From positions 18,166,001 to 18,230,000 of the forward strand of contig CATNEN010000001.1 of assembly GCA_950097015.1 (NCBI GenBank): a DNA stretch of 64,000 bases, read 5' to 3'. This stretch comes from Macrostomum hystrix. Taxonomy: Eukaryota; Animalia; Platyhelminthes. Shown here piece after piece: positions 15,197 through 35,300 of this stretch. The translations under genes were made by a program, and so were the position numbers. How positions within the stretch are numbered: position 1 is the stretch's first letter; each line of letters opens with the position of its first letter. Under the pieces are notes generated by a model. That model worked only from the letters and a program-made list of their open reading frames with translations, was not told the DNA's origin and did no database searches.

Positions 15197-15525
15197 AGTA
15201 GAGAGAAGAAAGGAAGGGAATGTGCTAGAAGGGTGTGGTAGAGAGCAGAAAGGCAGGGAAGGTGCTAGAAGGGTGTAGTAGAGAGCAGAAAGGCAGGGAA
15301 GGTGCTAGAAGGGTGTGGTAGAGAGCAGAAAGGCAGGGAAAGTGCTAGAATGGTGTGGTAGAGAGCAGAAAGGAAACAAAGAGGTGGAATGGTGTAGCAG
15401 AATGCAGAAAGGCACAAAGGTATGGTAGAGGGCAGATAGGCAAGGAAGGAAGAACAAAGGTATGGGAGAGGGCAGAAAGGTATAAGCAGAAAGGTATAGG
15501 ATATTAAAGGACAGAATATTGCAGC
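15197..15525 (-). repeat. Right inverted-repeat arm (the part mirrored inside this window)
   Basis: Near-perfect reverse complement of 1-330. Confidence 0.9.
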
Positions 15526-20286: not shown

Positions 20287-21354
20287 TCAGCAAAAAAATC
20301 GATTGAGACTTATGAATCCATTTCTTTTGGATGAGAAAAGTGTCTGCTTATTAAAAACATTAGCTGACACTTTCTGATAACAATGAGAAATTGTGTAGAC
20401 AGCAAAGAGCTTCAATGATATTGCAGATAGCTTCAAGATTTTCAAAATTAATATAATTAATTCTTTGCCACCTTCTTGCCATGATACCAAATGTTCGTTC
20501 AACACATTGACGAAGAGCACTTAGTTTAATATTGAAATGTTTTGTTGTTCATTCAAGTTTCGACCTTTATATGGTGTTATAAGAGCTGCACAATTTGGAT
20601 ATGCAGAATCACCAATTAGACATAAGCCATGCTGCTCTAGAAAGTCAAGTTGCTGATAAGCAGAAGAATATTGAAAAGTTCGGGCATCATTGGTACTACC
20701 TGGCCAGCCAATAAAGTAGTCAATTATTTTATGGTTGTTTACAGCAACAATCTGTAATTTTATTGAATAAAACTGTTTCCTATTATAGTATGCCATTCCA
20801 TCTTCAATTGGACAGCGAATTCTTACTTCTTTTACATCAATTGCACCCACAACACAGTCGAGAAAAAAAGAATCCGATTTTCACTGAATTGTCTAGCTTC
20901 AACAAGACATTCTTGCAAAGAAGGAAAATATATCATTTTTTTTTAAAAACCCACTATCTTTAAAAGCTTGGAGGACTCGATAAATTATTAAAGATACAGT
21001 ACTTTTAGAAAAGTTAAACAAGGTACCAAGTGACTCATATGACTCTTGTGTAGCAAGGAATCGCAAGAAAAGCAGAATCATACTAATTATATTAGACCCT
21101 TTAGGAGAGAGTAAAGTAAGATATGAAGCAGTTTCTAAGACTAAATCTTGTACAGCGGTCCTAGAAAGCCGAAAAAAATGAATAAACTGGTTATCATTAA
21201 AACTGTAAACAGTTTTCTCAACAAACTCATTTACTTTTGGCCATATTTCTATTACTCTTTTTGGCTTTAATAGACTTAGTTGAGTAGTACTTATGGTAGT
21301 TGTTTGTTCTTCTAGAAGCTCAGCAAATTCAATGCCCACAGATTCCATAAGCAA
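20287..21354 (-). pseudogene. Harbinger/HARBI1-like DDE transposase, frameshifted
   Basis: F..FFRLSR; LRFLATQESYESLG..F..SKSTV; GAID; YYNRKQFYSIKLQ; GWPGSTNDARTF; IGDSAYP; LITPY. Split across three ORFs. Confidence 0.88.
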
Positions 21355-22361
21355 ATACTATTGCGCAGCAGTAATACTATTTAGGTTGCAAACGAAAAAA
21401 AAGCGTTTTCTGACTGGGAAAAGGCGAATATGCGTTGTATTGAGAAAGCAGTGAATAAAGTGTATAGAAATGGAAAAGTTTTAAATATGTAACAAAATTT
21501 AAAAGACTTGTGCGAAAAAAGTTTAACTGCAAAATAAAATATAAACTGGCAGTTACTGACCGTTAAAATGGTACTATTTAGTTGCATCGAAATAGCAGTA
21601 GTGTCAAATGTATATTTGCTTGTTATACTGCTACGTCTAAACTAGCAGTTTAGCTCAGTTGGGTCCTCCTAAAAGCCTCGACGCACCGCCCCTGGCGCAC
21701 TTACTAGTTTTAACAACGATTGCCTGCTAAAGGATTTTATAAAGAAAAGCTTTGTATTTTAGTTTCAATAAAATAGTTGGGTTTAAAAAATACTATTAAA
21801 AAATTTTTTCTCAAAACGAATACGACAATTTTTTTTGATTACTATAACTACCATGTGCGATACTAAGTGGCGATCTTCTTGCCAGGAGCGCACTCGAGTA
21901 CTTATATAATAGATTGCTCTAATAGATAAGAGCTAGTCGGTAATTTCTTTTGATTTGCTCCATTTATTATAATTAAGTAGCTTAATTGGTAATAATCAAC
22001 TACTTTAAATTACAGCCTTTCTTACAGCTGTAGTAAAAGAAATATAGCAATAGGGCCTATGGCTATAGAGTAAATGTAGTCATACTCACACCGTGAGTCA
22101 CATACAGTGCTGTCCTTATTCACCTTCGCTGATAAATTATTAATTTATATAATGAAGCTCAGGGCTTATAAAATGTATTTTTGTCGCACGCAGCCTATTC
22201 TAATTTATAATGACATAATGATAGTATTTAATGCGAGTATGTGCTATTGATGTGGAGTGTGCTGCGGGAATCGAGTGGGAATGTGAGCCAGCATAATTTT
22301 TCAAATTTTAAGTAACTAATAATTGCGACCCACATAGCAGCTGGCCACAAAACAAGATCAT

Positions 22362-24539
22362 TAATCTTAGGGCCGGGTTTGGGGCGGCGGTGAATCAAGT
22401 AGCTGCCGAATCCCCTCTCTCCGGAGTTGTCTAGACTCCCCGTAGGAATGACTGATCGCGGCCATAATGTTACTGTATGAACTAGTTTAGGTCATAATTC
22501 CCCTCCAAACCGCGATCAGATATAGGGGCTCACTCACGCGTTATGAGTGATCATAAAATTCTTCATGTCCCCGCTTCTTTACAGTATTCGAGCCCAGCTC
22601 GACTTTATGACCTCCTTCCTTTAGATACATGTAAATATCACTGTAGGCAGGTCGGCGCCTGCGCTTCCATTGTCCCGGCGGAGTAACAATTGTTGGCCGT
22701 CTGCCGATGGCTGCTCTCGATGAGCACCTGTCGTTTCCCGCCGCCGGTTCATTGGGCAATTGGGGCGGCCTGTCGTCGCTTCGATTCCCCGTTGACAGGC
22801 GGGCGCGAATGTGGGTTGCTTTGATGGATGTCGGGGTTGGCGTGCTGCAAGGCCTATTTAAGCAAGCGCGCTGCGCTGCTCCCTCCTCTAGGACCCCCTT
22901 TTTCTCCCACCGGCTCTCCCCCTTCTCCCCTGCCGGACTTACTTTTGCCGGGCCGGACTCCCACCGGACCCAGGACTTATCCCCCAGACCCAGTTAGGGC
23001 ATAGACCCTAGAGCTCATAGCTCCACAGTTAGTGCAGGCCCATTGCCTGTCCCCATTCCCCCTGAGCGCGAGCCACCTCTTTAGGTGAGCTGTTAAATTG
23101 AGCCTTGAGCTCCAAGCGTGTTGGCCCCCTTGCCGACTCGCAGCATCTTTCCCTTCCCGGCTTTTGCTATCTTACCCCATCCTCTTCCCCGAGAACAACG
23201 GGATTGCAGCACGCGGCCGAAGCGACTCCAGATAAGTAATCCGCGCAGCGGTTTGCAATTATTGCTCCTAAGGGGCTTTCTATTAGTCAGGCGGCATTTA
23301 GTGGGAGGGAAGCTAGGAATTGTTTCGCCTAATAAACTATCCAATCTAAGCACTTTTAACGTTGGGCTTAACTTTATAACAATTTAAATTCTTTTATTAT
23401 GTCTCCTTTTCACCTTTATTTTAACCTTAGACAGCCCTCCACCATGAGTGGCTAATCTATTAGGGGAATGGGCTCTGGCACGGCCGAGCTGAAAGCTGCG
23501 GCGGGAAGGCAATTGTAAGCGCGCATGAGAGTAATATGGAGCTAGGGATTTGTAAGTAAATGCGGAGGGTAGCATGTGCATTTCCTTTCCAGGGGGTTGG
23601 GGGAATCCTTGGCCGGTTTTCCTTCTCCCTCTTGGGTGGGTTCAAGGTACGTGTCGAACTCCCTTTCCAATGGAGTTTTCCCGCTGTCCCCCTTTCGCAC
23701 CTGCGGCCACGGGAACGAGAGTGATGTTCAATTAATCTCACGCTTGCATAATCACTCAGCCAGTGTTCAGCTTAACCTCTCCTGCCTCTGTTTTCCTCAA
23801 CTCACACAGACTCGGATTGCTAGTTATCTAATGTGTAGGCTGCAGTCTAATGTACAGAATGTGTCTGATGTCCCATGAGTAGGATTCTGGCTATGGGTTT
23901 CTTTTTCAGGTTCTGAGTACCACCTTTCTAGACCACTGTAGCGCAAATTCAGGAATCCCCTGGTGAGGCGTGTCTCGATCCATTCTGGGGTCTTCACCCT
24001 AGTCTAAAACGGAAGTTACAGAAGGCTCTATTTTTTCGGCTTGTCTAAGATCTGTGTGACAAACTAGGAGCCGCGAGCTCCGGGGACCCAAGTTCCCAAA
24101 TGTCTGCGGTGGCAACGTAGGCGCATTGGGTGGTGGCGCTACCCTAGATCATTTTCCGCTTTGCCGATAGCCTTTCCGCATTTCTAAGACAAGAGCCTAG
24201 GCCGAGTCGACCACTGCTACCAAGTTTAGGAGTCAGTTACGAACATGCTACTGATGACAGTAGGCTACCTAGCCCTGTCCTATCCGCTTGCGAGTAGTCC
24301 GACATCTATTTAGACTTTTAGCCGGTTTCGAGCACTGCTTGGGGTAGGCACGGCAGTCATGCCTGTGGCCTATGGGTTGAGTGGGACTGGCCAGCCTGAG
24401 GCCGAGAGGACCACTCCCTGCATCCACTGTCTCTCCCTTCATCTCTCCCTTCATCCCTCTTTCCGCGGCAACTCGCGAGACTTTGCGGTACGACTTCTGA
24501 CTCTATCGCCATCCCCACACTCCTTTCCTTCACGAGGAC
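22362..24539. mobile_element. Unclassified GC-rich insertion inside the MULE
   Basis: Abrupt GC shift. Flanked by the direct repeat agatcat (22355-22361, 24540-24546). No TIR or recognisable ORF. Confidence 0.4.
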
Positions 24540-26608
24540 AGATCATCGATTGCAAACCCGCGATTATTTCACTATGGAAACTAAGACACTGTCAATGGCA
24601 TGTGCATTGAACATCTGCATCAAGGTCAGATTTCTGCGAAACTGGTAGATCTAGACTCAGCAGACTGTACAGTGCTAATTTTTTAGCATCTTTCATGCTT
24701 ATTAGATAAGGCAGCAATAACTTTCTATTTTGTTTTATTACCGTTTTAAATTTCATTTCACAAATGAGATTTGAGTTTAGTGCTCAAATTAGTTTGTTGT
24801 ATCTCATAATTGAGATATTGTTTGTTTTGTTTAAATTTTTTAGTCGCAGTTGGTCTAGCTATTGTACTGATTTTTCACTGTTTCAAAAATATTGCGCGCT
24901 ACACAGAGGCTAGCAGAAGGCCTATATTTATAATCACAGCATTTAAGCCATATAAGGTAGTGAGTGTAAAGTTAGGCCTAACCTTAAATAAAAACAACTT
25001 CCAATTTTTTTGTATTCTCAAATATTTATAGTCATGAATTGCTGTTAAACTACATTTTAGTAAAAAAAGTAAGGGAGTAAGTATATTGAAGAAGCATAAC
25101 GAGAAAGAAAGCAGTGCAAAACAATTGTAACACAATAAATATCTTTATATGTATTTCACAATATTTATATATTACTTGTTCCTTAGGATGTTAGGCCACA
25201 CAAAACGAAACCTATAAAGCATATTAATATAATGTTATATTATAATAGCTATAACACTCTTAAGTTATTCGTATACAAACATATCTATGCAGAATATCAA
25301 AGTAACAAATGAGAAAAAATAAATGTATTGGACTAACTAACGCAAAGTTTATATATAAACTAGAAGCTTGGGAGCTGTAAAAATAGGCACAAAAATGCCT
25401 ACTAAAAACTTTGTTTACATTTCAGCTCAATTTTTAGTTTGGACAATTCCAGAAACAACTATAAAAGTAGTGAAATTGGCTTTTTGTTTTATGATTAGGC
25501 AGCCAAATATTAACTTCTGGCTATAACAAAGAATTTAATATAGTTATTCATTTAAATTTCAGATAGAATAACATTTAGAATTTGTTTCAAAATATGCAAG
25601 AAGCCACGGTACATTTCAGCAATGGCTACAACTATTGAATTTGATAAGCAGCATTAAAGCAATATGCTTAAAACATTCAGCAGATAGAATAGGTATACAA
25701 GAAATAAGTGAACCTTATATAAAAATTTTTTTTCATACATTTTTGTATGAGACTTAATATTGTTATGATTATAAGAGATATATATAATAGGCAGGTATGT
25801 AGCATGTAAACAAAATATAAACATAACAAAGAAACATTTAATAGCTTCAATATAAGCATATAAGTATGCAACCACATTATCTATAAAATGTTTTGTATGA
25901 AGAATTAAACTGCAAGTACCCTTAATGTAACTTTTTTAAACTTTTATTTTAAGTGTACAACAATGTTAATGTTTGAAGCTATGACTCTAGTTTCATATGT
26001 TATCGACAACTGTTATTATAAAATTTTTTCAGATGGAGAATTCAAGACAAGCATATACCCACAAAATATACTTTGATAATATTTTCTGTACTCTTTCTTC
26101 ACCTAATGAATGTTCTGTTTCAATAAATTTAAGTAAACTTGCATTTGAATCTATGCATTTTGAATAACTGTTAGTGAATAAAAAAGTGTTTATTTATTCT
26201 CACAACAACATATGATCGAGTCTTCTGGGTTCAATTTGCGTTTTATTTTATTTTCATTTTGAGAGTTGAAGGAATCTTCGAGCAAGCTAAGGTATCAACC
26301 AAGCAATCCTCTATTTTCGCATGCTATTTATTTTTAGTCTGCTGTCTTTTTTGACTGATTAAAAGCACACCAAACCTGGTAATTAAGCATTTAGCACCTA
26401 ACTTTAAATTATCTTTTTGCGTCGAAGTAGGGTTAATAGCTAACAAAATAACCAGAGTCATTGTGACTCTGAGAATTAGCTGTGTGACTTTGAAATTACC
26501 TTAGGCTTATATACGGTTGGGGCCAAAGATATGTACTTTCGGCAGCTTGATTTAGGTAACCATTGTTCGTGATATGCAGATCTAACATTACTTTTAATGC
26601 ATATTTAG

Positions 26609-29600
26609 TTACAGCTCCGGAGAAACTTCCATTCGGCGAAATAACAACAAACGAACATCCCGCGAAATTGTAGCTAATAGAGATGTTGTCTTGCGCAGTG
26701 TCGTGACACGGAGGTCGTCCAAATGATGGCACATGTCGGTGCCGCTAGGAAAAGTGTAGGACACGTAATGACCGGCATCGACCTGATGTCCAAGGTGAAC
26801 TATCGCGCTTATTAGCTCATACCGATGGTTGTAGTACTCTATATCGTAATGCAAGTCGAAACTTGTTCTGTTCTTGATTAATTCATTTTGGCTTTGGTCT
26901 AGCCTGTTTAGAATGATGCACAGGACAGGTGGTGCATTTTGAGGCCATCTGTTATGGACGCATCGGCCGGCACGACAACTTGAGCACGGGATGTCGTCAG
27001 CCACTGATGGATGCAGCGCCGATCTTACAAGCTGACTAAGCTGTTGACCGTCAGCTGGCTGCACTACGAGAAAAAACTCAGTTGAGCCTGTTGGCGTAGC
27101 AAGTGCACCACAGTGCACGCAGAGAACGGACTCGCTGAACTAAGAAAACAAAAGCAAATCTTTTTTCTTATGGAGACAGAACTTAAAAAGGAAAAGCGGA
27201 AAATCAGTTGTAATCAGTGCGAAAAACCTAACTTACCTCTAGTCGGAACTGCAACTGAAGACACGGCTTCAGTGTTAAAGGCACAAAGAACTCGACGCAA
27301 TCGTGAAATTCGTTAACGTCCAGTTGACCTTCGACGCAGCATTCATTTAGAGCTAGATTAAACGATGATTCGCTGAATCCTAGTCCGTTTGAGATTAGGC
27401 TAACAAGCTTCACTATATGGGACTTTTTCGTCCTCTGTAAAGGTGCGTCCTGATAGAGCTGCAGAAACGGCGTTAATACTGGAATTATACCAGCACAACT
27501 TTCCTGACTCATTGGGCAAGCCAGATGGGCGGTATGCAAACGTAGAGCACCGCACTGTAACAAAGGAGGCGACATCCTCGACCGAATCTGCGATATCGGT
27601 TATCTCAACAGTAGCTGGAAACTGTACAGTTGATACGCCTGAAGTCTGTCTGTTACTAGCTTGACTAGTTCGCTTTGGAGCCAGCTCGAATTCACGGCGA
27701 TAGAGCTTTCTCTGCTCATTTCGCTCTTGAGCTGAAAAGCCTTTGCGCCGATGCATGGAATTCGGTCGCGTTCGTCTTAAGAGCAGGTCAAGTTTTTTTG
27801 GCTTTTTAGGATCCCGACGTAGTCCGATTTTTGTCTTGACTGATGAAATATGTGAGCACGATACCTGCGACACACAAGAGCAAGTAGCGACACTCTCGTC
27901 GAAGGAAACAACGTTGTGTCGACCAGCTATATTTGTGACGATAAAATTTCCAAGAGTCTCATTAAAAGTCACTTTGTTTGCCTCTTCTAGCATCCGAATG
28001 CGGCTCGTCTCATCAATACTATCATCTAGATCAGTCCGAATCGGAAATCCAGTTCTGGCTGAAGAGGAGTCTGGAACAGGTGCATCTTCCATAGTTAAAG
28101 GCGTGGAATTAGGGAGCGGCTGAGCTCTGCCTGTCGAGTCCTGCATGGCATCCGTGTATGAAGTTAGATGAGCAACATTTACGTCGATTGAGGAGACCAC
28201 TGAAACTTGACAAGCGGAATGCAGGCTTACTGTCGAACCTCTCTGTAAGTGGGCAATAATCTGCTCAAGCGACATTGTTGGTGATAGTGTAACACTGTCT
28301 GGCGTTTGTCTTAAATATTCATATTCTTTCTTAAGAACGAAATTCCCCTGTCCACAGAGACCGCGCAAAATCTCATTCCTGTAGTACACAGAAATTCTAT
28401 ATAGATGGATGAGGCAGTCGTCAAGTGGTACTTGCTTGAAGTTTTGCATCCGTTGTAGGACTGCATTTAAGGACTCTGACTGATTTTGCGTGACTCCAGT
28501 GATTGGACAATAGAATGATCCAAGCAGCCACTTGCCAAAAAACTTTGGGATCAGAGGGTGCACATACTTCTCAAAGTACTTAGCAAAATTAGCATGCCAG
28601 TTTTTCTTGACTTCTTCGTACTGCTCGATGTACTCCTCCTCGTTGTCAGACTCCAGCAGAGACAGTAGGTTTGACGACAGGATATGCTCATCATCTACAG
28701 TGCCACCGTGCTTCCGTACCCAAAATCTGACGTCTCTCCTCAGATGGTTCCAGCAGCCAAAAAACTTAATGTTAGGTAAGACTGACTTCATTGCCGTCCT
28801 CAGTGCAACTTCGCCATCCATGACGCAGGCAAGATCAACTGTTGATAATGCAGGTAAAGAGGCTTTAGCTTCCTCCCAAAGTTGCCTATGTCGAGCTTCA
28901 AGCTTTCGGTCATGAACGAGAAACAACACGGGGCAAATTGGGTTCCCATGAAACATAGGGAGACGCATGACAAGTGGAGAAACAAGAGCACCAGTCATTT
29001 CAAAACCGGTGTCGTACGATAGGAGTTGCTTTTTGTCTCTCAAAAGCAGGACGCGGTTTAAAAGTTCGACAAGTTCTACATGGCCTGCAGTTACCGCTAC
29101 ATCTGGAAACGTTTGAATGCTCCGAACGAAGCCTGGAATTTCATTTGCAATGATGTGCACATTGCTTATCGCGTCACCACTAAGCTTGTTCATGGCAGAC
29201 AGAGTCTGTTTTAGATTTTGCACTTGTTTAAAATTGCGAGGTAGGCACGCTGGGTTGCTAGTCGAATTTCCTGAGTGAAGATGGTAGGCTTGCGACGGCG
29301 CATTATGAGCTAGATCAACTCTCATTTTCTCCAGCAATGATGGGCAAGTTCGTAGATAGGGCCCACAGCGAACGCTATTTCCATGGTAGACACTGTGAGC
29401 ATCTGGCTGCACACTTGAGCTGCCAACATAGTGAACCAGAGTTTTTCTAAAAGCGAGATAAGAAAGTTCAAGAAGACATTCACACACAGACTAATGGAAG
29501 GAACTTAGAAATGTAATTATTTATTTACGCTTTGTTGACATCTCTTGTCCCATCAGCTAAAATTTGGTATGCATGTCGAACAAATAGTCGCGAAAGTTGG

Positions 29601-31845
29601 CCACCGGCAAGTCGAGACGAATATCTGTACTTGTACAGCTGTGGCTGTCTCCTGAAATAAATAAAAACTATTTTGCAGCTTGAAAAGTTATAAATTATCC
29701 CAATGTCAATGTGGTAGATCCAGGTGCCACCTGCCAGGATCCAGGTGCTAATTACCATGTCTATCGTTGTTGGGCATGTACTCGCTGCATTCTTGTTTGG
29801 TACTTACTCTTGAGGCTCGTGTGCTTTGTGAGAGCATTTTTAGTTAGAATTTAATTTTTTGGAGGATGAGCACCAGAGTTTTGGAGATTGGGATTTTGTT
29901 CTATGCTCTATACGCCCTATGCTCTACGTGGATGCCGAGCCCAACGGAGAAGTCCTGACACCGGCGCACTTCCTGGTCCTGCAGCGTCGGACGGCCGAAC
30001 CGCACGCCCGAGCTACTCCTGCCATTGCCAACCCTGCTGAATCGGATGCGCGCGAAACTGCATGCCTTCTGGGACTGCTGGGAGCGACAGTACCTGACCA
30101 GCTTAAAAGATCATCGGCTCACTCCCAAGCACGGCATTGTCCGAGAGGCGGAGGTCGGCGACATCGTTCTGGTGAAAGGCGAAGCTGGACAAACGAGACT
30201 TGCCTGGTGCACTGGCGTCATCGAGTCGGTGCATCCTGGCCGAGACGGCGAGGTCCGATCGGCGACAGTTAGAGTCGCGCCCAAGCCGGGCCGTGGTCCC
30301 AGGAGATGCATGATCCGCAGACCGGTAGAAAATCTGATTTTACTGGAAGCCGTGACCGAATCAACTTTGCTATGGACTGTTATAATTTACTGACTGTTAT
30401 TGATGCTCGCTCGTTGATCAATCTTTTTGAAATTTCGAATGGGAGTCGATTTCCATGCTAAATAATTTCTCTTCAATCGTTTTTTGTTAACTTCTCGTAT
30501 TGGTGGTGGTGGTGGTATGCTACTGTTGCATAACTGTTTCTTCATTTCGAAGTATTTTGCTATTCCGTAGACTTTTCATACTGTACGGTAGCACAATCAT
30601 TTCCGGGTACCGTAATGAGGAAGCATCATTAGGGGGATAGTGGTGGATTTGAGTGCCTGCCTGCCCCATTGCTATGTGTAGCATCGTCACGTGTACGCCT
30701 GGCGCTTCCCCCTTCTCTGTGTGCGTGTTGCATGTGCATTGTGGGGTAGGTGTCGCGTCAGAGAGAGAGGGGGGATAGAGAGAGTGGATGTACGTGCGTG
30801 CAACCTATCACTAAGCTTTGAAGGTATAAAATATAAAGCAACTGTTGGCCATAGGCCTCTGAGACCTTTTCTCTGCCTTAACAACCTCAGAGTGAGTTAT
30901 TCATTCCTTAACAGTCAACAACAGTAAAGATAGCAAAATAGTTAATATTGGCAGAGTGTAGATCTAGAACTATCAAACAGTAGGATGCCATTTTGCTTTA
31001 TTTCTTAAATGGACATATTGTTACAGGTATGCGCCTGTACTCTGCATGCAGATTCCCACCCTTTGCTACCAATTAAGTATCTATGTTGTCTATTTAAAAC
31101 CCTCTCTTTGAAATTTTTTAAACTTATTCGGCGGATAAACACTTTAACCCTCATTGCTCAAGCGTATTTTATTAGAAGCCGCTCCGATATACGATAATAA
31201 TATATATATTAGGACGTATTTTTATACCCTTCTCCAGTCGTAAAAATGCAGTTTCGTAAATTGTATAATAAATTATAAATTGAATTTAATTATAAATTAT
31301 ACTCTTTTACTATAGAAGTAAGCGTCTTGTTATCATGAAATTAACTTTTAATTTTGCGCATTAATTAAATCTTCTTGTTCTCATTTGAGATTCATAATTA
31401 CATAAAATTTCTTGTTACAGCATTAACCTTGTAAAATATATATTTTTATTTACCAAATTATTTTGAGTACAATATTTATAAAGTCTCACATTAAGTAATA
31501 GAACCCATTAACCCAATACATTTTAAACAGTGTTAATACATTTTTAATACAATACATTTAAGTATGAAAAATATGTGCTTTAAACAATTATAAGCTTCTC
31601 TAAACTTGTTAACACACATAAAAATAATCGTTATTCTATCACCTCGGCAAACGATCGCGTCCTTTATCGGACCACTGATAGCCATCTGCTTTCCAGTCGT
31701 TAGCATGTACGGCTGACTGGGGATTAAATAACAGGAGTGAGCCTTCACTCGGTCTATACAGTGGTGCACTAATTGTGAGAAAATTATCAGATGCATCCGG
31801 TTGGCCTCTAATAATCCGAAGAGCAATTGCCGCTGTTAGACTCAT
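26609..31845 (-). CDS. MULE transposase: CG-1-like N-terminus, DDE core, SWIM finger, C-terminal USP/UCH (peptidase C19) domain; one frameshift at ~27424-27428. Exons 31845-31643, 29651-29529, 29446-27237, 27139-26609
   Basis: RPSEGSLLLFN...DWKADGYQW; LVHYVG..HGN; LSYDTGF (D); VMDGE (D); CWNH; NQSESLN (E); CSCVSQVSCSH. USP motifs: GLPNESGKLCWYNSSINAV, FHDCVEFF, CVHC/CSSC, YELISAIVHLGHQVDAGHYVSY, HLDD. Splice phases are consistent. Confidence 0.85.
29912..30923 (+). mobile_element. 5'-truncated BEL/Pao LTR-retrotransposon fragment (integrase C-terminus, PPT, 3' LTR) in a MULE intron
   Basis: RPMLYV...LTPAHFL; FWDCWERQYLTSL..VGDIVLVK..W..GVIESVHPGRDGEVRSATVR..RRPVENL (DUF5641-like). Purine tract agggggatag, then TG...CA segment 30641-30923. 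Confidence 0.8.
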
Positions 31846-32305
31846 GCAAATGACTTGTATAGAAATGTAGAAGCAGAGCAAGAAATAACTGAAATGAAAA
31901 TTCAAACGAAATCACCGAGTCTGCTTTAGTTGCTTATTTTTTTTAATAAATGATAATTTTTTAAGTGTTCCTTACATCCGAGTCACCATGCAGTGTAGTC
32001 CTGATGGCCATTTCGGCGAAAAGTTAAAATTATTCATTTGTTTTTTTCTGCGTTTCAATTTTTCATTTCCAAAAATGTATAATGAATATTTACATATGGA
32101 TTTTTCACATTTAATTTGCGAACATCTGTATAAAAAATAATTTTTTTACATTTTGTTATACCCTGTAAGTGCGCCAGGGGCGGTGCGTCGAGGCTTTTAG
32201 GAGGACCCAGCTCAGTTTAGCTACTCGAACGCACCCAATGTTACATTAATACGCGACCATAAAATATATTCGAAACTTGGGACAACTTTTTTAGCTTTAG
32301 CCACA

Positions 32306-35300
32306 ATGCAGAGACGCCAGTTATGTTTTGTTACATTTCTTTTGTTGTCCATAATTTTTCTCTGCATATTGTTTCCAACGGTAGCTGTTAATGTAGATGA
32401 AGATGAACCACTAGCTGAGATGATTAAATCTTTGCTTCCAATTAAATTTCTAGAAAATGGTCAGATTAGCCAAAAAGCTCCTACTAAATTTCACGCTAAG
32501 GACGTAAGATCAAATGACCCTTTAAAGAATGCAGAAAAAATGTTTCATGGCTTAGAAAATATCTTCAAAAGTCTTAATGAACCTGACAGTGGTAACTGTC
32601 ATTATGAGTGTCCAAATGGTAAGCCATGCAGGGACCCTGTTAAAGTATGTTCACCTAGTAGCCTTGGCATTTATTTTTTATTGAAGTCAATGTGTTTATT
32701 GAAAGCAACTATTTAAATAAGAAGTGTGATGCAGGATGTCATGCCATATGCCTATTCTACTTTTCTTCTGGAATTTGTACTTTTAGTTTTTTTATTTTTT
32801 AGGCTTGGGGTAGACTGTTGAATGCTCATTAAATTTGAGGTTTTTCTAATTGCTTTTTGCCTTAGTATTCTAATTAATTATATTCTATATGTTAGTAGTA
32901 TATTATTATATTGAAACTGAAATCTAGTTACATATAATTCCATCTTTTTAACCTAATTTTGTTTAATAATTTTTTGTTGTCCCTATTATCACCTTTAATT
33001 GCCAAAATTTACGTGTGTACCAATAGAATAGGTAATATTAGGCCCTAGCCTAGCTGTATATAATATATACTACTGCCTAGCTAGGCCTTATCAAAATACC
33101 TTAGATATACATGTATTTTTATAGGACTTTATGTCATATACTATTCAGCAAAAAGTCTAGGCAAAATTTTAGCCTTAGCTTTGCAATGCTAAATGAACTT
33201 TATCTGTAACATTAAAAGAAGTAAAGTTAAGGATTTATCTTGCTGTTTATAAAATTGTGGCCTTGAGGGGTTTATTAGTCAAATCTTAAATCTGTTTTAC
33301 ACTATATTGTGTGAGAAATTCAGAGTATCTAATATTTGAAGTATATAAATATATGGCAGAGCTTATTCCCATGGTCCTATGCCGATAATTTCAAATTTAT
33401 CCACACAGATCCGTGCCAATAATTTTCTGCTTATCCACACAGCAGCTTGTATGAATAGGTCTACAACTAAGAAAATTGTTCAGCAAAAGCATTGGGACAT
33501 TGTTTTAACTCTCAAGAATTTAACGCCTAAGTCCAAAGGACACACAATCGTAAAGATTCGCAGAGGAAAGCGCAGAACTAGTTAACATGCTTTCGTCGAG
33601 TTTCTAAAACCTTATTTTCATATGGGAACAAGTCAGTAGTATCATTTGCACATGTGCATCATATCATATTTCAAGCATGTGTGCAATACAAATGTCAGCG
33701 TGATTCTTCATGCGATTGTTAGCAACATTACATGTTATTCGAAATTAATGATTATTTGAAATTTAACGTGTGCATTGCTCGTAATTAAAAGAGGCCCTAC
33801 TACAGGTACTGCAGGTTCTGGACATCATGTATGGCCAGTTGTATATAGTACATGAAAATTGCTACACAGTTCCTGTAAAATATGTGCTTTAAGTTCTTAA
33901 AGTTATCGGCAAAACAAGCTGCCGTGTGGATAAGCAGAAAATTATTGGCATGGATCCGTGTGGATAAAATTTAAATTATTGGCACGGGACCGTGGGAATA
34001 AGCACTTCCTAAATATATTGCTTATGTATGTAAATGTATATTATTATATGCCAAAGCCAAAGTTTTAATGATTTTTATTGCTTATTTGTCTCCTAAATTT
34101 ATAGCAAACTCCTAAACGAGTGTGATATAATAGCAATCAAAGTTAATTTTTTATTTAGATAATTTCATCATTACTTAGGTTTCACATGTTATCAGCCAGA
34201 GCAAATATTCCACTAAGCATGAAAAATATCCCACAGGCGGGAAGCCAACACTTAAGCCTGGCTTTAAGACTGTGCCTAATGGCTGTGGCTCACATGGATT
34301 CAAGGTGATGACCGGGTTATGGCAATCCTTAGCCTGACATAAATATTATTTTATAAGCTTGCCTACTGTCTATAAAAACATTGCGTATTTTCGCTACAGA
34401 TTGATGTCTCTTCTCTGCCTGGCCTAACCGACTGCTGCAACCAGCATGACATTTGCTATGGCACCTGTGGCAAGGGTCAGGCTGAGTGTGACCGGGCTTT
34501 TAACACCTGCCTTGCTGATTCCTGCCTGCAAATGAGCCACACTGGCATTGTTAAAACTGACAAGGCTTTGGAAGGTTTGTGTCTTCCTGACAATGTCACT
34601 GTCCCTGCTAAAACCATTTAGGGCCATTTCCCCTCTGCTTCAGAGTTATTGTCCCCGATTCTTCAGGGTTATTGTCCCCGATTCTTCAGGGTCATTGTCC
34701 CCGATTCTTCAGGGTTATTGTCCCCGATTCTTCAGGGTTATTGTCCCCGATTCTTCAGGGTTATTGTCCCCGATTCTTCAGGGTTATTGTCCCCGATTCT
34801 TCAGGGTTATTGTCCCCGATTCTTCAGGGTTATTGTCCCCGATTCTTCAGGGTTATTCTCCCTGATTCTTCAGGGTTATTGTCCCAGATTCTTCAAGGTC
34901 ATTGTCCCCGATTCTTCAGGGTTATTGTTCCAGATTCTTCAGGGTTATTGTCCAGGATTCTTCAGGGTTATTGTCCAGGATTCTTCAGGGTCATTGTCCC
35001 CGATTATTCAGGGTTATTGTCTAGGATTCTTCAGGGTTATTGTCCCCGATTATTCAGGGTCATTTCCTCGATTTTTCAGGGTTATTATCCCAGATTATTC
35101 AGGGTTATTGTCCCCGATTCTTCAGGGTTATTGTTCCAGATTCTTCAGGGTCATTGTCCCCGATTCTTCAGGGTTATTGTCCCCGATTCTTCAGGGTTAT
35201 TCTCCCTGATTCTTCAGGGTTATTGTCCCTGAATCTTCAGGGTTATTGTCCCCTCTGCTTCAGAGTTATTGTCCCCTCTGCTTCAGAGTTATTGTCCCCG

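What the first reader, a model, noticed from the sequence alone, without database searches (positions are those of the whole stretch)
26609..31845. Mutator transposase fused to a ubiquitin-specific protease (USP/C19) domain
Seen: after the DDE core and SWIM finger come a Cys box (GLPN...CWYNS), an HDxxEF motif, two CxxC pairs, a His box (YELISAIVHLG...AGHY) and a downstream DD, so the catalytic Cys, His and Asp are all present. Established: MULEs commonly carry Ulp1/SUMO (C48) or OTU proteases; a C19 USP fusion is much less familiar. Inference: the transposase could deubiquitinate itself or chromatin (H2A/H2B) to resist degradation or silencing.
Basis: partly seen in the sequence, partly recalled or inferred. 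Interest (0 to 1): 0.8.

Follow-up and report, generated by a model that had tools for sequence, protein, structure and literature searches.

The report
Mutator transposon carrying a deubiquitinase tail
A young 10.5-kb jumping gene in an animal genome carries a predicted single gene that joins its cut-and-paste enzyme to a ubiquitin-removing (USP) enzyme, which likely shields the transposase from the host's ubiquitin tagging; this copy's USP part is broken, a distant relative has it whole, and other relatives carry different ubiquitin or SUMO proteases in the same position.

Summary
The fusion is real, but this copy cannot make the protease. The motifs lie in a 10,548-bp Mutator-like element (21661-32208) with perfect 44-bp TIRs, a perfect 9-bp TSD and an empty-site allele. 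A predicted four-exon gene encodes CG-1-like, DDE, SWIM and USP parts. Of the two frame changes in the USP, one is a predicted 97-nt intron. The other is a true frameshift, present in contigs from three runs; a contig from another study has 5 more bases there and keeps the frame. The His-box exon passes Pfam UCH. A distant protein (P0088, 24% identical) holds transposase, SWIM and a whole USP in one ORF. None of 56 related loci has a USP; 16 score for Ulp1 and 14 for OTU after SWIM, never both. Selection on the USP is inconclusive (8 synonymous of 23 changes). Ulp1 and OTU on MULEs, and C19 on one protist transposase, are in print; ten searches found no paper on MULE plus C19. The scan noted MULE-USP fusions on other DNA. 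Verdict: new variant of a known kind; function untested.

The parts
21652..21660 (+). Left target-site duplication AGCTCAGTT (9 bp)
   Evidence: Identical to 32209-32217; empty-site joint 21643->32212 in DNA run X2
21661..21704 (+). Left terminal inverted repeat, 44 bp, begins GGGTCC
   Evidence: 44/44 match to the right TIR; 2 matches of its first 17 nt in the window, 0 expected
22248..24571 (.). Nested 2.3-kb insertion with TG..CA ends and a 4-bp CTAT duplication (solo-LTR-like, inferred)
   Evidence: a contig of run X2 skips it (joint 22240->24572) and summed contig depth over it is far above the flanks
26609..27139 (-). Predicted last exon: USP fingers and palm, two CxxC pairs, His box (H 26770), DD (26719-26714), stop
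   Evidence: Pfam UCH 42.3 bits; USP2 alignment; model pLDDT 94.7, Foldseek top hits all USPs
27140..27236 (-). Predicted intron 3 (97 nt, GTAAGT..TTAG, phase 0) inside the USP
   Evidence: Sequence; a 2-nt insertion falls inside it in run X5; no spliced contig seen
27237..27422 (-). USP middle part (thumb, DxxEF motifs), out of frame in this copy
   Evidence: aligns to the USP N-half HMM
27400..27424 (-). Frameshift near 27423 and premature stop at 27402-27400
   Evidence: No gap against the window in contigs of X1, X2, X4; one X5 contig (depth 2.6) has 5 more bases behind 27423
27493..27522 (-). USP Cys box GLPN..C, in frame with the transposase
27850..27882 (-). SWIM-type zinc finger CxCx4CxH
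   Evidence: Aligns with the same motif in P0001, P0004, P0005, P0088; P0004 passes Pfam SWIM; the window piece itself does not
27424..29446 (-). Predicted exon 3 up to the frameshift: MULE DDE core (D 29013, D 28818, CxxH 28755-28744, E 28476), SWIM, linker, Cys box
   Evidence: 696-aa ORF; homologues at E 5e-75; invariant residues
29447..29528 (-). Predicted intron 2 (82 nt, GT..AG)
   Evidence: the spliced frame is open
29529..29651 (-). Predicted exon 2, second half of the N-terminal DNA-binding region
   Evidence: Only one of three junction phases gives an open 783-aa frame; matches the N-terminus of P0001/P0005 by eye
29652..31642 (-). Predicted intron 1 (1991 nt), holding a DUF5641 fragment (29959-30393, + strand; BEL/Pao-type by recall)
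   Evidence: Pfam DUF5641 51 bits
31643..31845 (-). Predicted exon 1 with a CG-1-like domain; start codon uncertain (an upstream exon is possible)
   Evidence: Pfam CG-1 22.7 bits, just under the cut-off 23.5, E 8.6e-5
32165..32208 (-). Right terminal inverted repeat, 44 bp
32209..32217 (+). Right target-site duplication AGCTCAGTT

Best explanation
This is a 10.5-kb Mutator-like DNA transposon with 44-bp inverted ends and a 9-bp target duplication, whose predicted four-exon gene joins a DDE transposase to a C-terminal USP/C19 domain that likely removes ubiquitin from the transposase or its DNA complex and so protects it from ubiquitin-triggered removal. Shown: the element, its ends, the empty site, the motifs, the USP family assignment and an intact fused relative. 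Predicted: the splicing, and a full product of about 1023 aa in an unbroken copy. In this copy a frameshift ends the protein at about 790 aa, with DDE and SWIM intact and only the Cys box of the USP left, so the protease is dead here. Inferred: the slot after SWIM is a swappable eraser module, filled in relatives by Ulp1 (a SUMO protease) or OTU (a deubiquitinase). A SUMO eraser and two unrelated ubiquitin erasers can replace each other most simply if they interrupt one SUMO-then-ubiquitin pathway acting on the DNA-bound transposase. The identity of the element is about 95% sure; the confidence given is for the cis-protection mechanism.
For: TIR 44/44 and TSD 9/9; empty allele. The Cys box is in the transposase ORF. 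P0088 was found with the USP exon alone and was the only one of those 81 hits to match a MULE profile (E 3e-63). It has Pfam UCH over profile positions 2-234 of 254, and its USP part models at pLDDT 92 and matches USP46-ubiquitin at TM 0.84. Cys, His and Asp are kept in both the window and P0088 despite about 30% identity over the best USP stretch. In 56 related loci, 16 score for Ulp1 and 14 for OTU behind SWIM, none for both (Pfam-confirmed in 2 Ulp1 and 5 OTU loci). L034 (OTU) and L047 (Ulp1) are sister transposases at 100/100. The same either-or pattern is published for Ginger1 (PMC2836005, passages). Helitron-borne VTD domains are active deubiquitinases, proposed to prevent proteasomal degradation of transposition proteins (PMC9741609, passages).
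Against: No activity or substrate was tested. No intact copy was seen in this organism: the window copy is frameshifted, a second copy has several frameshifting indels and lacks the Cys box, and a third joint skips 25530-29880. Selection on the USP is not shown. Many relatives have no protease after SWIM (26 of 56 loci with no protease hit, some cut short; P0001 and P0005 end soon after SWIM), so it is dispensable. CXXC and PHD fingers next to the protease in relatives fit a chromatin substrate as well. The folds were built on alignments of USPs, so they are not independent of the sequence evidence.
Confidence: 0.45

Rival explanations
1. The USP acts on chromatin around the element or its target (ubiquitinated H2A or H2B, or ubiquitinated or SUMOylated silencing factors), helping it escape silencing or insert at promoters.
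For: Relatives pair the protease with zf-CXXC (31 of 56 loci by my HMM; Pfam 49 bits in L016 and L049) or PHD. This copy sits about 15-25 bp from the 5' ends of cDNA-like contigs of a PLA2G12 gene. Histone-directed USPs are among the fold matches, but so are all other USPs.
Against: Neither the window gene nor P0088 has a CXXC or PHD reader. No closeness to a histone-specific USP lineage is seen.
Confidence: 0.22
2. The USP edits ubiquitin signals of DNA repair at the excision break or insertion gaps, steering the repair pathway or damping the damage response.
For: Proposed in print for Ulp1 and OTU on transposases (PMC2836005, passages). It also explains why SUMO and ubiquitin erasers are interchangeable.
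Against: No direct evidence here; it overlaps mechanistically with the best explanation.
Confidence: 0.15
3. The domain is a polyprotein-processing protease or neutral cargo: a USP captured long ago that rides along and decays, with no effect on transposition.
For: Every copy seen in this organism is broken in the USP; 5 of 5 allelic changes listed in the USP exons and linker are nonsynonymous, and 15 of 23 changes against copy 2. 0 of 56 relatives have a USP. Self-processing was suggested for OTU on MULEs (PMC1702500, passages).
Against: The triad and both zinc pairs are retained in two elements only 24% alike. Decay of inserted copies is expected for any transposon gene. USPs need a bound ubiquitin to align their active site (recalled), which makes plain self-cleavage unlikely.
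Confidence: 0.18

Closest known systems
MULE transposases with a C-terminal Ulp1 (C48) or OTU protease (PMC2836005 and PMC1702500, passages)
   Same: N-terminal DNA-binding region, DDE core with CxxH, SWIM, then a papain-fold ubiquitin or SUMO protease in the same chain; TIRs and 9-bp TSD. Relatives in the same clade carry exactly these domains.
   Different: The protease is a USP/C19 with zinc fingers, a separate family; no CXXC or PHD finger here.
Trichomonas vaginalis XP_001314237.1, transposase_11 plus Peptidase C19 (PMC2836005, passage; the cited source paper was not held)
   Same: A C19 deubiquitinase domain fused to a DNA transposase.
   Different: IS5-like transposase family (pfam01609) in a protist, not a MULE; one protein, no assay reported in the passage read.
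Ginger1 transposases (PMC2836005, passages)
   Same: Either OTU or Ulp1 at the C-terminus, never both; 0-4 introns.
   Different: Gypsy-integrase-like enzyme, 4-bp TSD; no USP listed.
Helitron/Helentron VTD and OTU deubiquitinases (PMC9741609, passages)
   Same: Transposon-encoded deubiquitinases of interchangeable families; VTDs were shown to be active.
   Different: Rolling-circle elements; VTD or OTU, not USP.
Rehavkus (PMC6446971, passage) and the scan's earlier Rehavkus-like and fungal MULE-USP notes
   Same: MULE-related DDE enzyme; the earlier notes describe a USP-like tail.
   Different: Here the TIRs are short (44 bp), with no minisatellite next to them and no PHD; those notes are unchecked, and a sequence look-up found no look-alike.

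Membership tests
Mutator/MULE superfamily | DDE triad with CxxH after the second Asp | tested here: met
   D160, D225, C246/H249, E339 of the ORF invariant in 8 of 8 aligned proteins
Mutator/MULE superfamily | Pfam MULE (PF10551) above the cut-off | tested here: inconclusive
   Window 13.6 bits, under 27.6; its homologues P0001 and P0004 pass, P0005 just misses; the ten best named Atlas hits share one family or clan, mostly MULE/SWIM, all under 0.9
Mutator/MULE superfamily | Terminal inverted repeats | tested here: met
   44 bp, perfect, within the 14-500 bp range given in PMC6446971 (passage)
Mutator/MULE superfamily | Target-site duplication of about 9 bp (range recalled) | tested here: met
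   AGCTCAGTT on both sides; empty allele with one diverged copy
Mutator/MULE superfamily | Placement within the reference MULE tree (named clade) | not tested
   No reference MULE set was loaded; the tree holds only relatives found here
USP / peptidase C19 | Pfam UCH (PF00443) above the cut-off | tested here: met
   Window last exon 42.3 bits; P0088 57.2 bits over nearly the whole profile
USP / peptidase C19 | Cys box, His box and Asp/Asn in order | tested here: met
   Present in the DNA in order; one extra residue in the Cys box
USP / peptidase C19 | Triad in one translatable chain in this copy | tested here: not met
   Frameshift near 27423, stop at 27400; met in P0088
USP / peptidase C19 | Thumb-palm-fingers fold | tested here: met
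   P0088 domain TM 0.84 to USP46; window last exon TM 0.79 to USP2; both models used USP alignments
USP / peptidase C19 | Cleaves ubiquitin conjugates | not testable with these tools
   Needs a probe or Ub-AMC assay
Rehavkus | [quoted passage not shown] | tested here: not met
   No tandem array inside 21500-32400; no Pfam PHD in the gene pieces scanned
Pack-MULE (separate captured host gene fragment) | Cargo close to a host gene and not fused to the transposase | tested here: not met
   Cys box in the transposase ORF; no close host USP among 81 hits; the organism's own USP genes could not be searched (no genome)

The most novel reading that the evidence does not exclude
One clade of animal MULEs swaps three unrelated erasers (Ulp1, OTU, USP) in a single slot behind SWIM because hosts destroy DNA-bound transposases through a SUMO-targeted ubiquitin pathway: a protein-level anti-transposon defence, with a fast-evolving, transposon-specific USP subfamily (window, P0088 and possibly P0013, P0099, P0023) as one of the counter-defences.
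Probability: 0.3. Interest if true: 0.75.

Novelty: new variant of a known kind. Interest (0 to 1): 0.5.

Why it matters
Protease tails on transposases have been noted for years, but in the passages read their role is only proposed. This clade gives a natural swap series, with SUMO protease, OTU or USP in the same position on related transposases, so the question of what they counter can be tested by domain exchange. It also adds USP/C19 to the accessory domains of MULEs and points to a divergent, transposon-borne group of USPs that genome annotation would file as host deubiquitinases. The copy in this window is itself broken, which limits its direct use.

Tried and rejected
Assembly error as the cause of the frameshift: rejected; contigs of X1, X2 and X4 cross 27423 without a gap. 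Two frameshifts: rejected; the second break is a canonical-looking intron. Recent capture of a host USP: not supported. No whole genome is held, so no copy count and no genome-wide dN/dS. No RNA holder is listed. X1, X3 and X4 look like cDNA (a contig joining 32620 to 34239 of the PLA2G12 gene, and adapter ends that I recall as template-switch oligos), and X1 and X4 contigs cross the predicted introns unspliced. Contigs drop variants, so this neither confirms nor excludes splicing. dN/dS from listed variants: 8 synonymous and 15 nonsynonymous against copy 2, 5 and 4 for X5, 0 and 5 for allelic changes; only the 40 best-supported of 51 rows were shown; not significant. More MULE-USP proteins: three word-index searches gave 7, 2 and 1 hits with P0088 the only USP fusion; proteins over 1276 aa were not searched. 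Viral contigs: no relative. Atlas: no cluster listed with both MULE and UCH. One or two origins of the fusion is unresolved. The window and P0088 transposases are not sisters in the free tree, but a clade is not rejected (p-AU 0.40; 24 rows, 15 of 56 loci used). Their USPs fall with P0013, P0099 and P0023 at 90/97 in a 27-row tree with long branches, but apart in a 73-row quick tree. The tree had the window row in the wrong frame and was discarded. No complex prediction was run, as no ubiquitin sequence was available to pair with.
Full report
OBSERVATION. The stretch holds a 696-aa minus-strand ORF (27400-29490) and a 176-aa ORF (26609-27139). The first has the DDE residues and CxxH invariant among eight aligned proteins, a SWIM-type finger, and ends in a USP Cys box. 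The second passes Pfam UCH (42.3 bits against a cut-off of 23.9) and aligns its His and Asp-Asp to USP2. A 62-aa middle piece lies in a third frame. The window's own core scores only 13.6 bits on Pfam MULE; its homologues P0001 and P0004 pass.

THE ELEMENT. It is larger than the finding. Perfect 44-bp TIRs bound 21661-32208 (10,548 bp), flanked by an identical 9-bp duplication. A contig of DNA run X2 joins 21643 to 32212, an allele without the element. Perfect ends and an empty allele indicate a young, polymorphic insertion. Two insertions lie inside: a 2.3-kb TG..CA piece with a 4-bp duplication (22248-24571) and a DUF5641 fragment in the first predicted intron. The right end lies just upstream of a PLA2G12-like gene.

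GENE MODEL. Three GT..AG introns (1991, 82 and 97 nt) give a predicted gene of four exons. Only one of three junction phases tried for exon 1 gives an open frame, 783 aa long, from a CG-1-like start through DDE and SWIM to the Cys box. The 97-nt intron accounts for one of the two frame changes in the USP. The other is a true frameshift near 27423. Contigs of runs X1, X2 and X4 cross it without a gap, while one low-depth contig from another study (X5) has five more bases there and keeps the frame. This copy would therefore make about 790 aa, with transposase and SWIM whole and the protease cut after its cysteine; an unbroken copy would make about 1023 aa. That X5 set is not shown to be intact: another X5 contig has a 1-base loss in the linker. 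A second copy in X2 and X1 has frameshifting indels and lacks the Cys box. No spliced contig was seen for any of the introns.

IS THE FUSION MORE THAN THIS COPY? A full HMMER search with the last exon gave 81 proteins. A MULE profile matched exactly one of the 81, P0088 (E 3e-63). P0088 is one 729-aa ORF with the second Asp, CxxH, Glu, SWIM and a complete USP (Pfam UCH 57 bits), 24% identical to the window protein. Its USP models at pLDDT 92 and matches USP46-ubiquitin at TM 0.84; the window's last exon models at pLDDT 95 and matches USP2 at TM 0.79. Both models used USP alignments, so they confirm compatibility, not independent discovery. The window's USP is close to no sampled USP. Among 72 other domains its best scores are P0099 and P0013 (the latter named as a Macrostomum lignano ubiquitinyl hydrolase), and P0088's best is P0013 with the window third. 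A 27-row tree groups window, P0088, P0013, P0099 and P0023 at 90/97 with long branches; a 73-row quick tree does not. Whether the two fusions share one origin is open (p-AU 0.40). The DNA around P0088 could not be fetched, so its TIRs are untested.

THE SLOT IS SWAPPABLE. Of 56 related loci (34 from one assembly, 39 with at least 1.4 kb behind SWIM, 6 without a SWIM end), none has a USP. Sixteen score for Ulp1 and 14 for OTU behind SWIM, none for both. These counts use HMMs seeded from the loci themselves. Pfam confirms Ulp1 above the cut-off in L008 and L048, and OTU in L022, L026, L034, L039 and L050. Seven of the Ulp1 calls are weak (E 3e-5), and all 14 OTU loci come from the one assembly. 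L034 (OTU) and L047 (Ulp1) are sisters at 100/100. CXXC and PHD fingers often accompany the protease.

SELECTION. The listed differences to the second copy in the USP exons are 8 synonymous and 15 nonsynonymous, against about 22% synonymous sites (p 0.12; 0.30 if 28% is assumed for transition bias). The five allelic changes are all nonsynonymous. This fits decay of inserted copies and says nothing firm about the active lineage. The case for past function is the retention of Cys, His, Asp and both zinc pairs between the window and P0088.

MECHANISM. I commit to cis-protection (0.45): the tethered USP would strip ubiquitin from the DNA-bound transposase, and Ulp1 or OTU would block the same SUMO-then-ubiquitin route in relatives. 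This step is inference from interchangeability and from the published activity of Helitron deubiquitinases (PMC9741609, passages). Chromatin substrates (0.22), repair signalling (0.15) and cargo or self-processing (0.18) remain.

LITERATURE. PMC2836005 (passages) lists Ulp1 on Mutator, OTU on Helitrons, either-or use on Ginger1, and a C19 domain on a Trichomonas transposase_11 protein. PMC1702500 (passages) reports OTU on Medicago MULE transposases. PMC6446971 and PMC13359780 (term searches of the main text) do not mention ubiquitin or a protease. A tree file in the supplements of PMC6446971 has one Aegilops entry named 'Ubiquitin carboxyl-terminal hydrolase 13' among MULE transposases; I did not check it, and it may be an annotation fusion. 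bioRxiv 2021.09.26.461848 (passages) has no protease mention; its supplements are closed. Ten searches found no paper describing MULE plus USP. Subscription papers and Repbase reports were not searchable. The scan's own notes describe MULE-USP fusions in Rehavkus-like and fungal elements (unchecked).

VERDICT. A real, young MULE with a USP/C19 tail, broken in this copy and whole in one distant relative, within a clade that swaps protease types. New variant of a known kind; interest 0.5.

Noticed in passing
window:22248-24571: 2.3-kb nested insertion with TG..CA ends and a 4-bp CTAT duplication, with very high summed contig depth in the DNA run and no Pfam hit above a cut-off in the three ORFs scanned; looks like a large solo LTR.
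   Followed up: partly
window:29880-30900: Fragment of an LTR retrotransposon (DUF5641 integrase tail, + strand) inside predicted intron 1; an X2 joint 25530->29880 suggests a deleted copy of the MULE that keeps it.
   Followed up: partly
window:32227-34621: PLA2G12-like gene; cDNA-like contigs begin about 15-25 bp from the right TSD, so the polymorphic insertion sits at its promoter. A divergent gene may begin near 21347 on the minus strand (seen by eye only).
   Followed up: partly
window:33355-34009: 650-bp element with 96-bp inverted arms in an intron of the PLA2G12-like gene, with very high contig depth: likely a MITE.
   Followed up: no
window:34500-64000: A dense series of unrelated minisatellite arrays with periods of 13-30 bp (at least 15 families), alternating in strand skew.
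   Followed up: no
window:1-328 and 15198-15525: 328-bp inverted repeat, 99% complementary, 14.9 kb apart, with internal 40-bp repeats: a possible large foldback element cut by the window edge.
   Followed up: no
P0013, P0023, P0026, P0099: Divergent USP domains grouping with the MULE-borne ones. P0013 begins RPGRK, like the basic motif after SWIM; P0026 ends in a CETHL..GVAVI stretch that recalls an AP-endonuclease start (recalled, no Pfam hit). They may be transposon-borne too.
   Followed up: partly
L009-L053 (one assembly): Several MULE families in one genome carry zf-CXXC behind SWIM, followed by OTU, Ulp1 or neither.
   Followed up: partly
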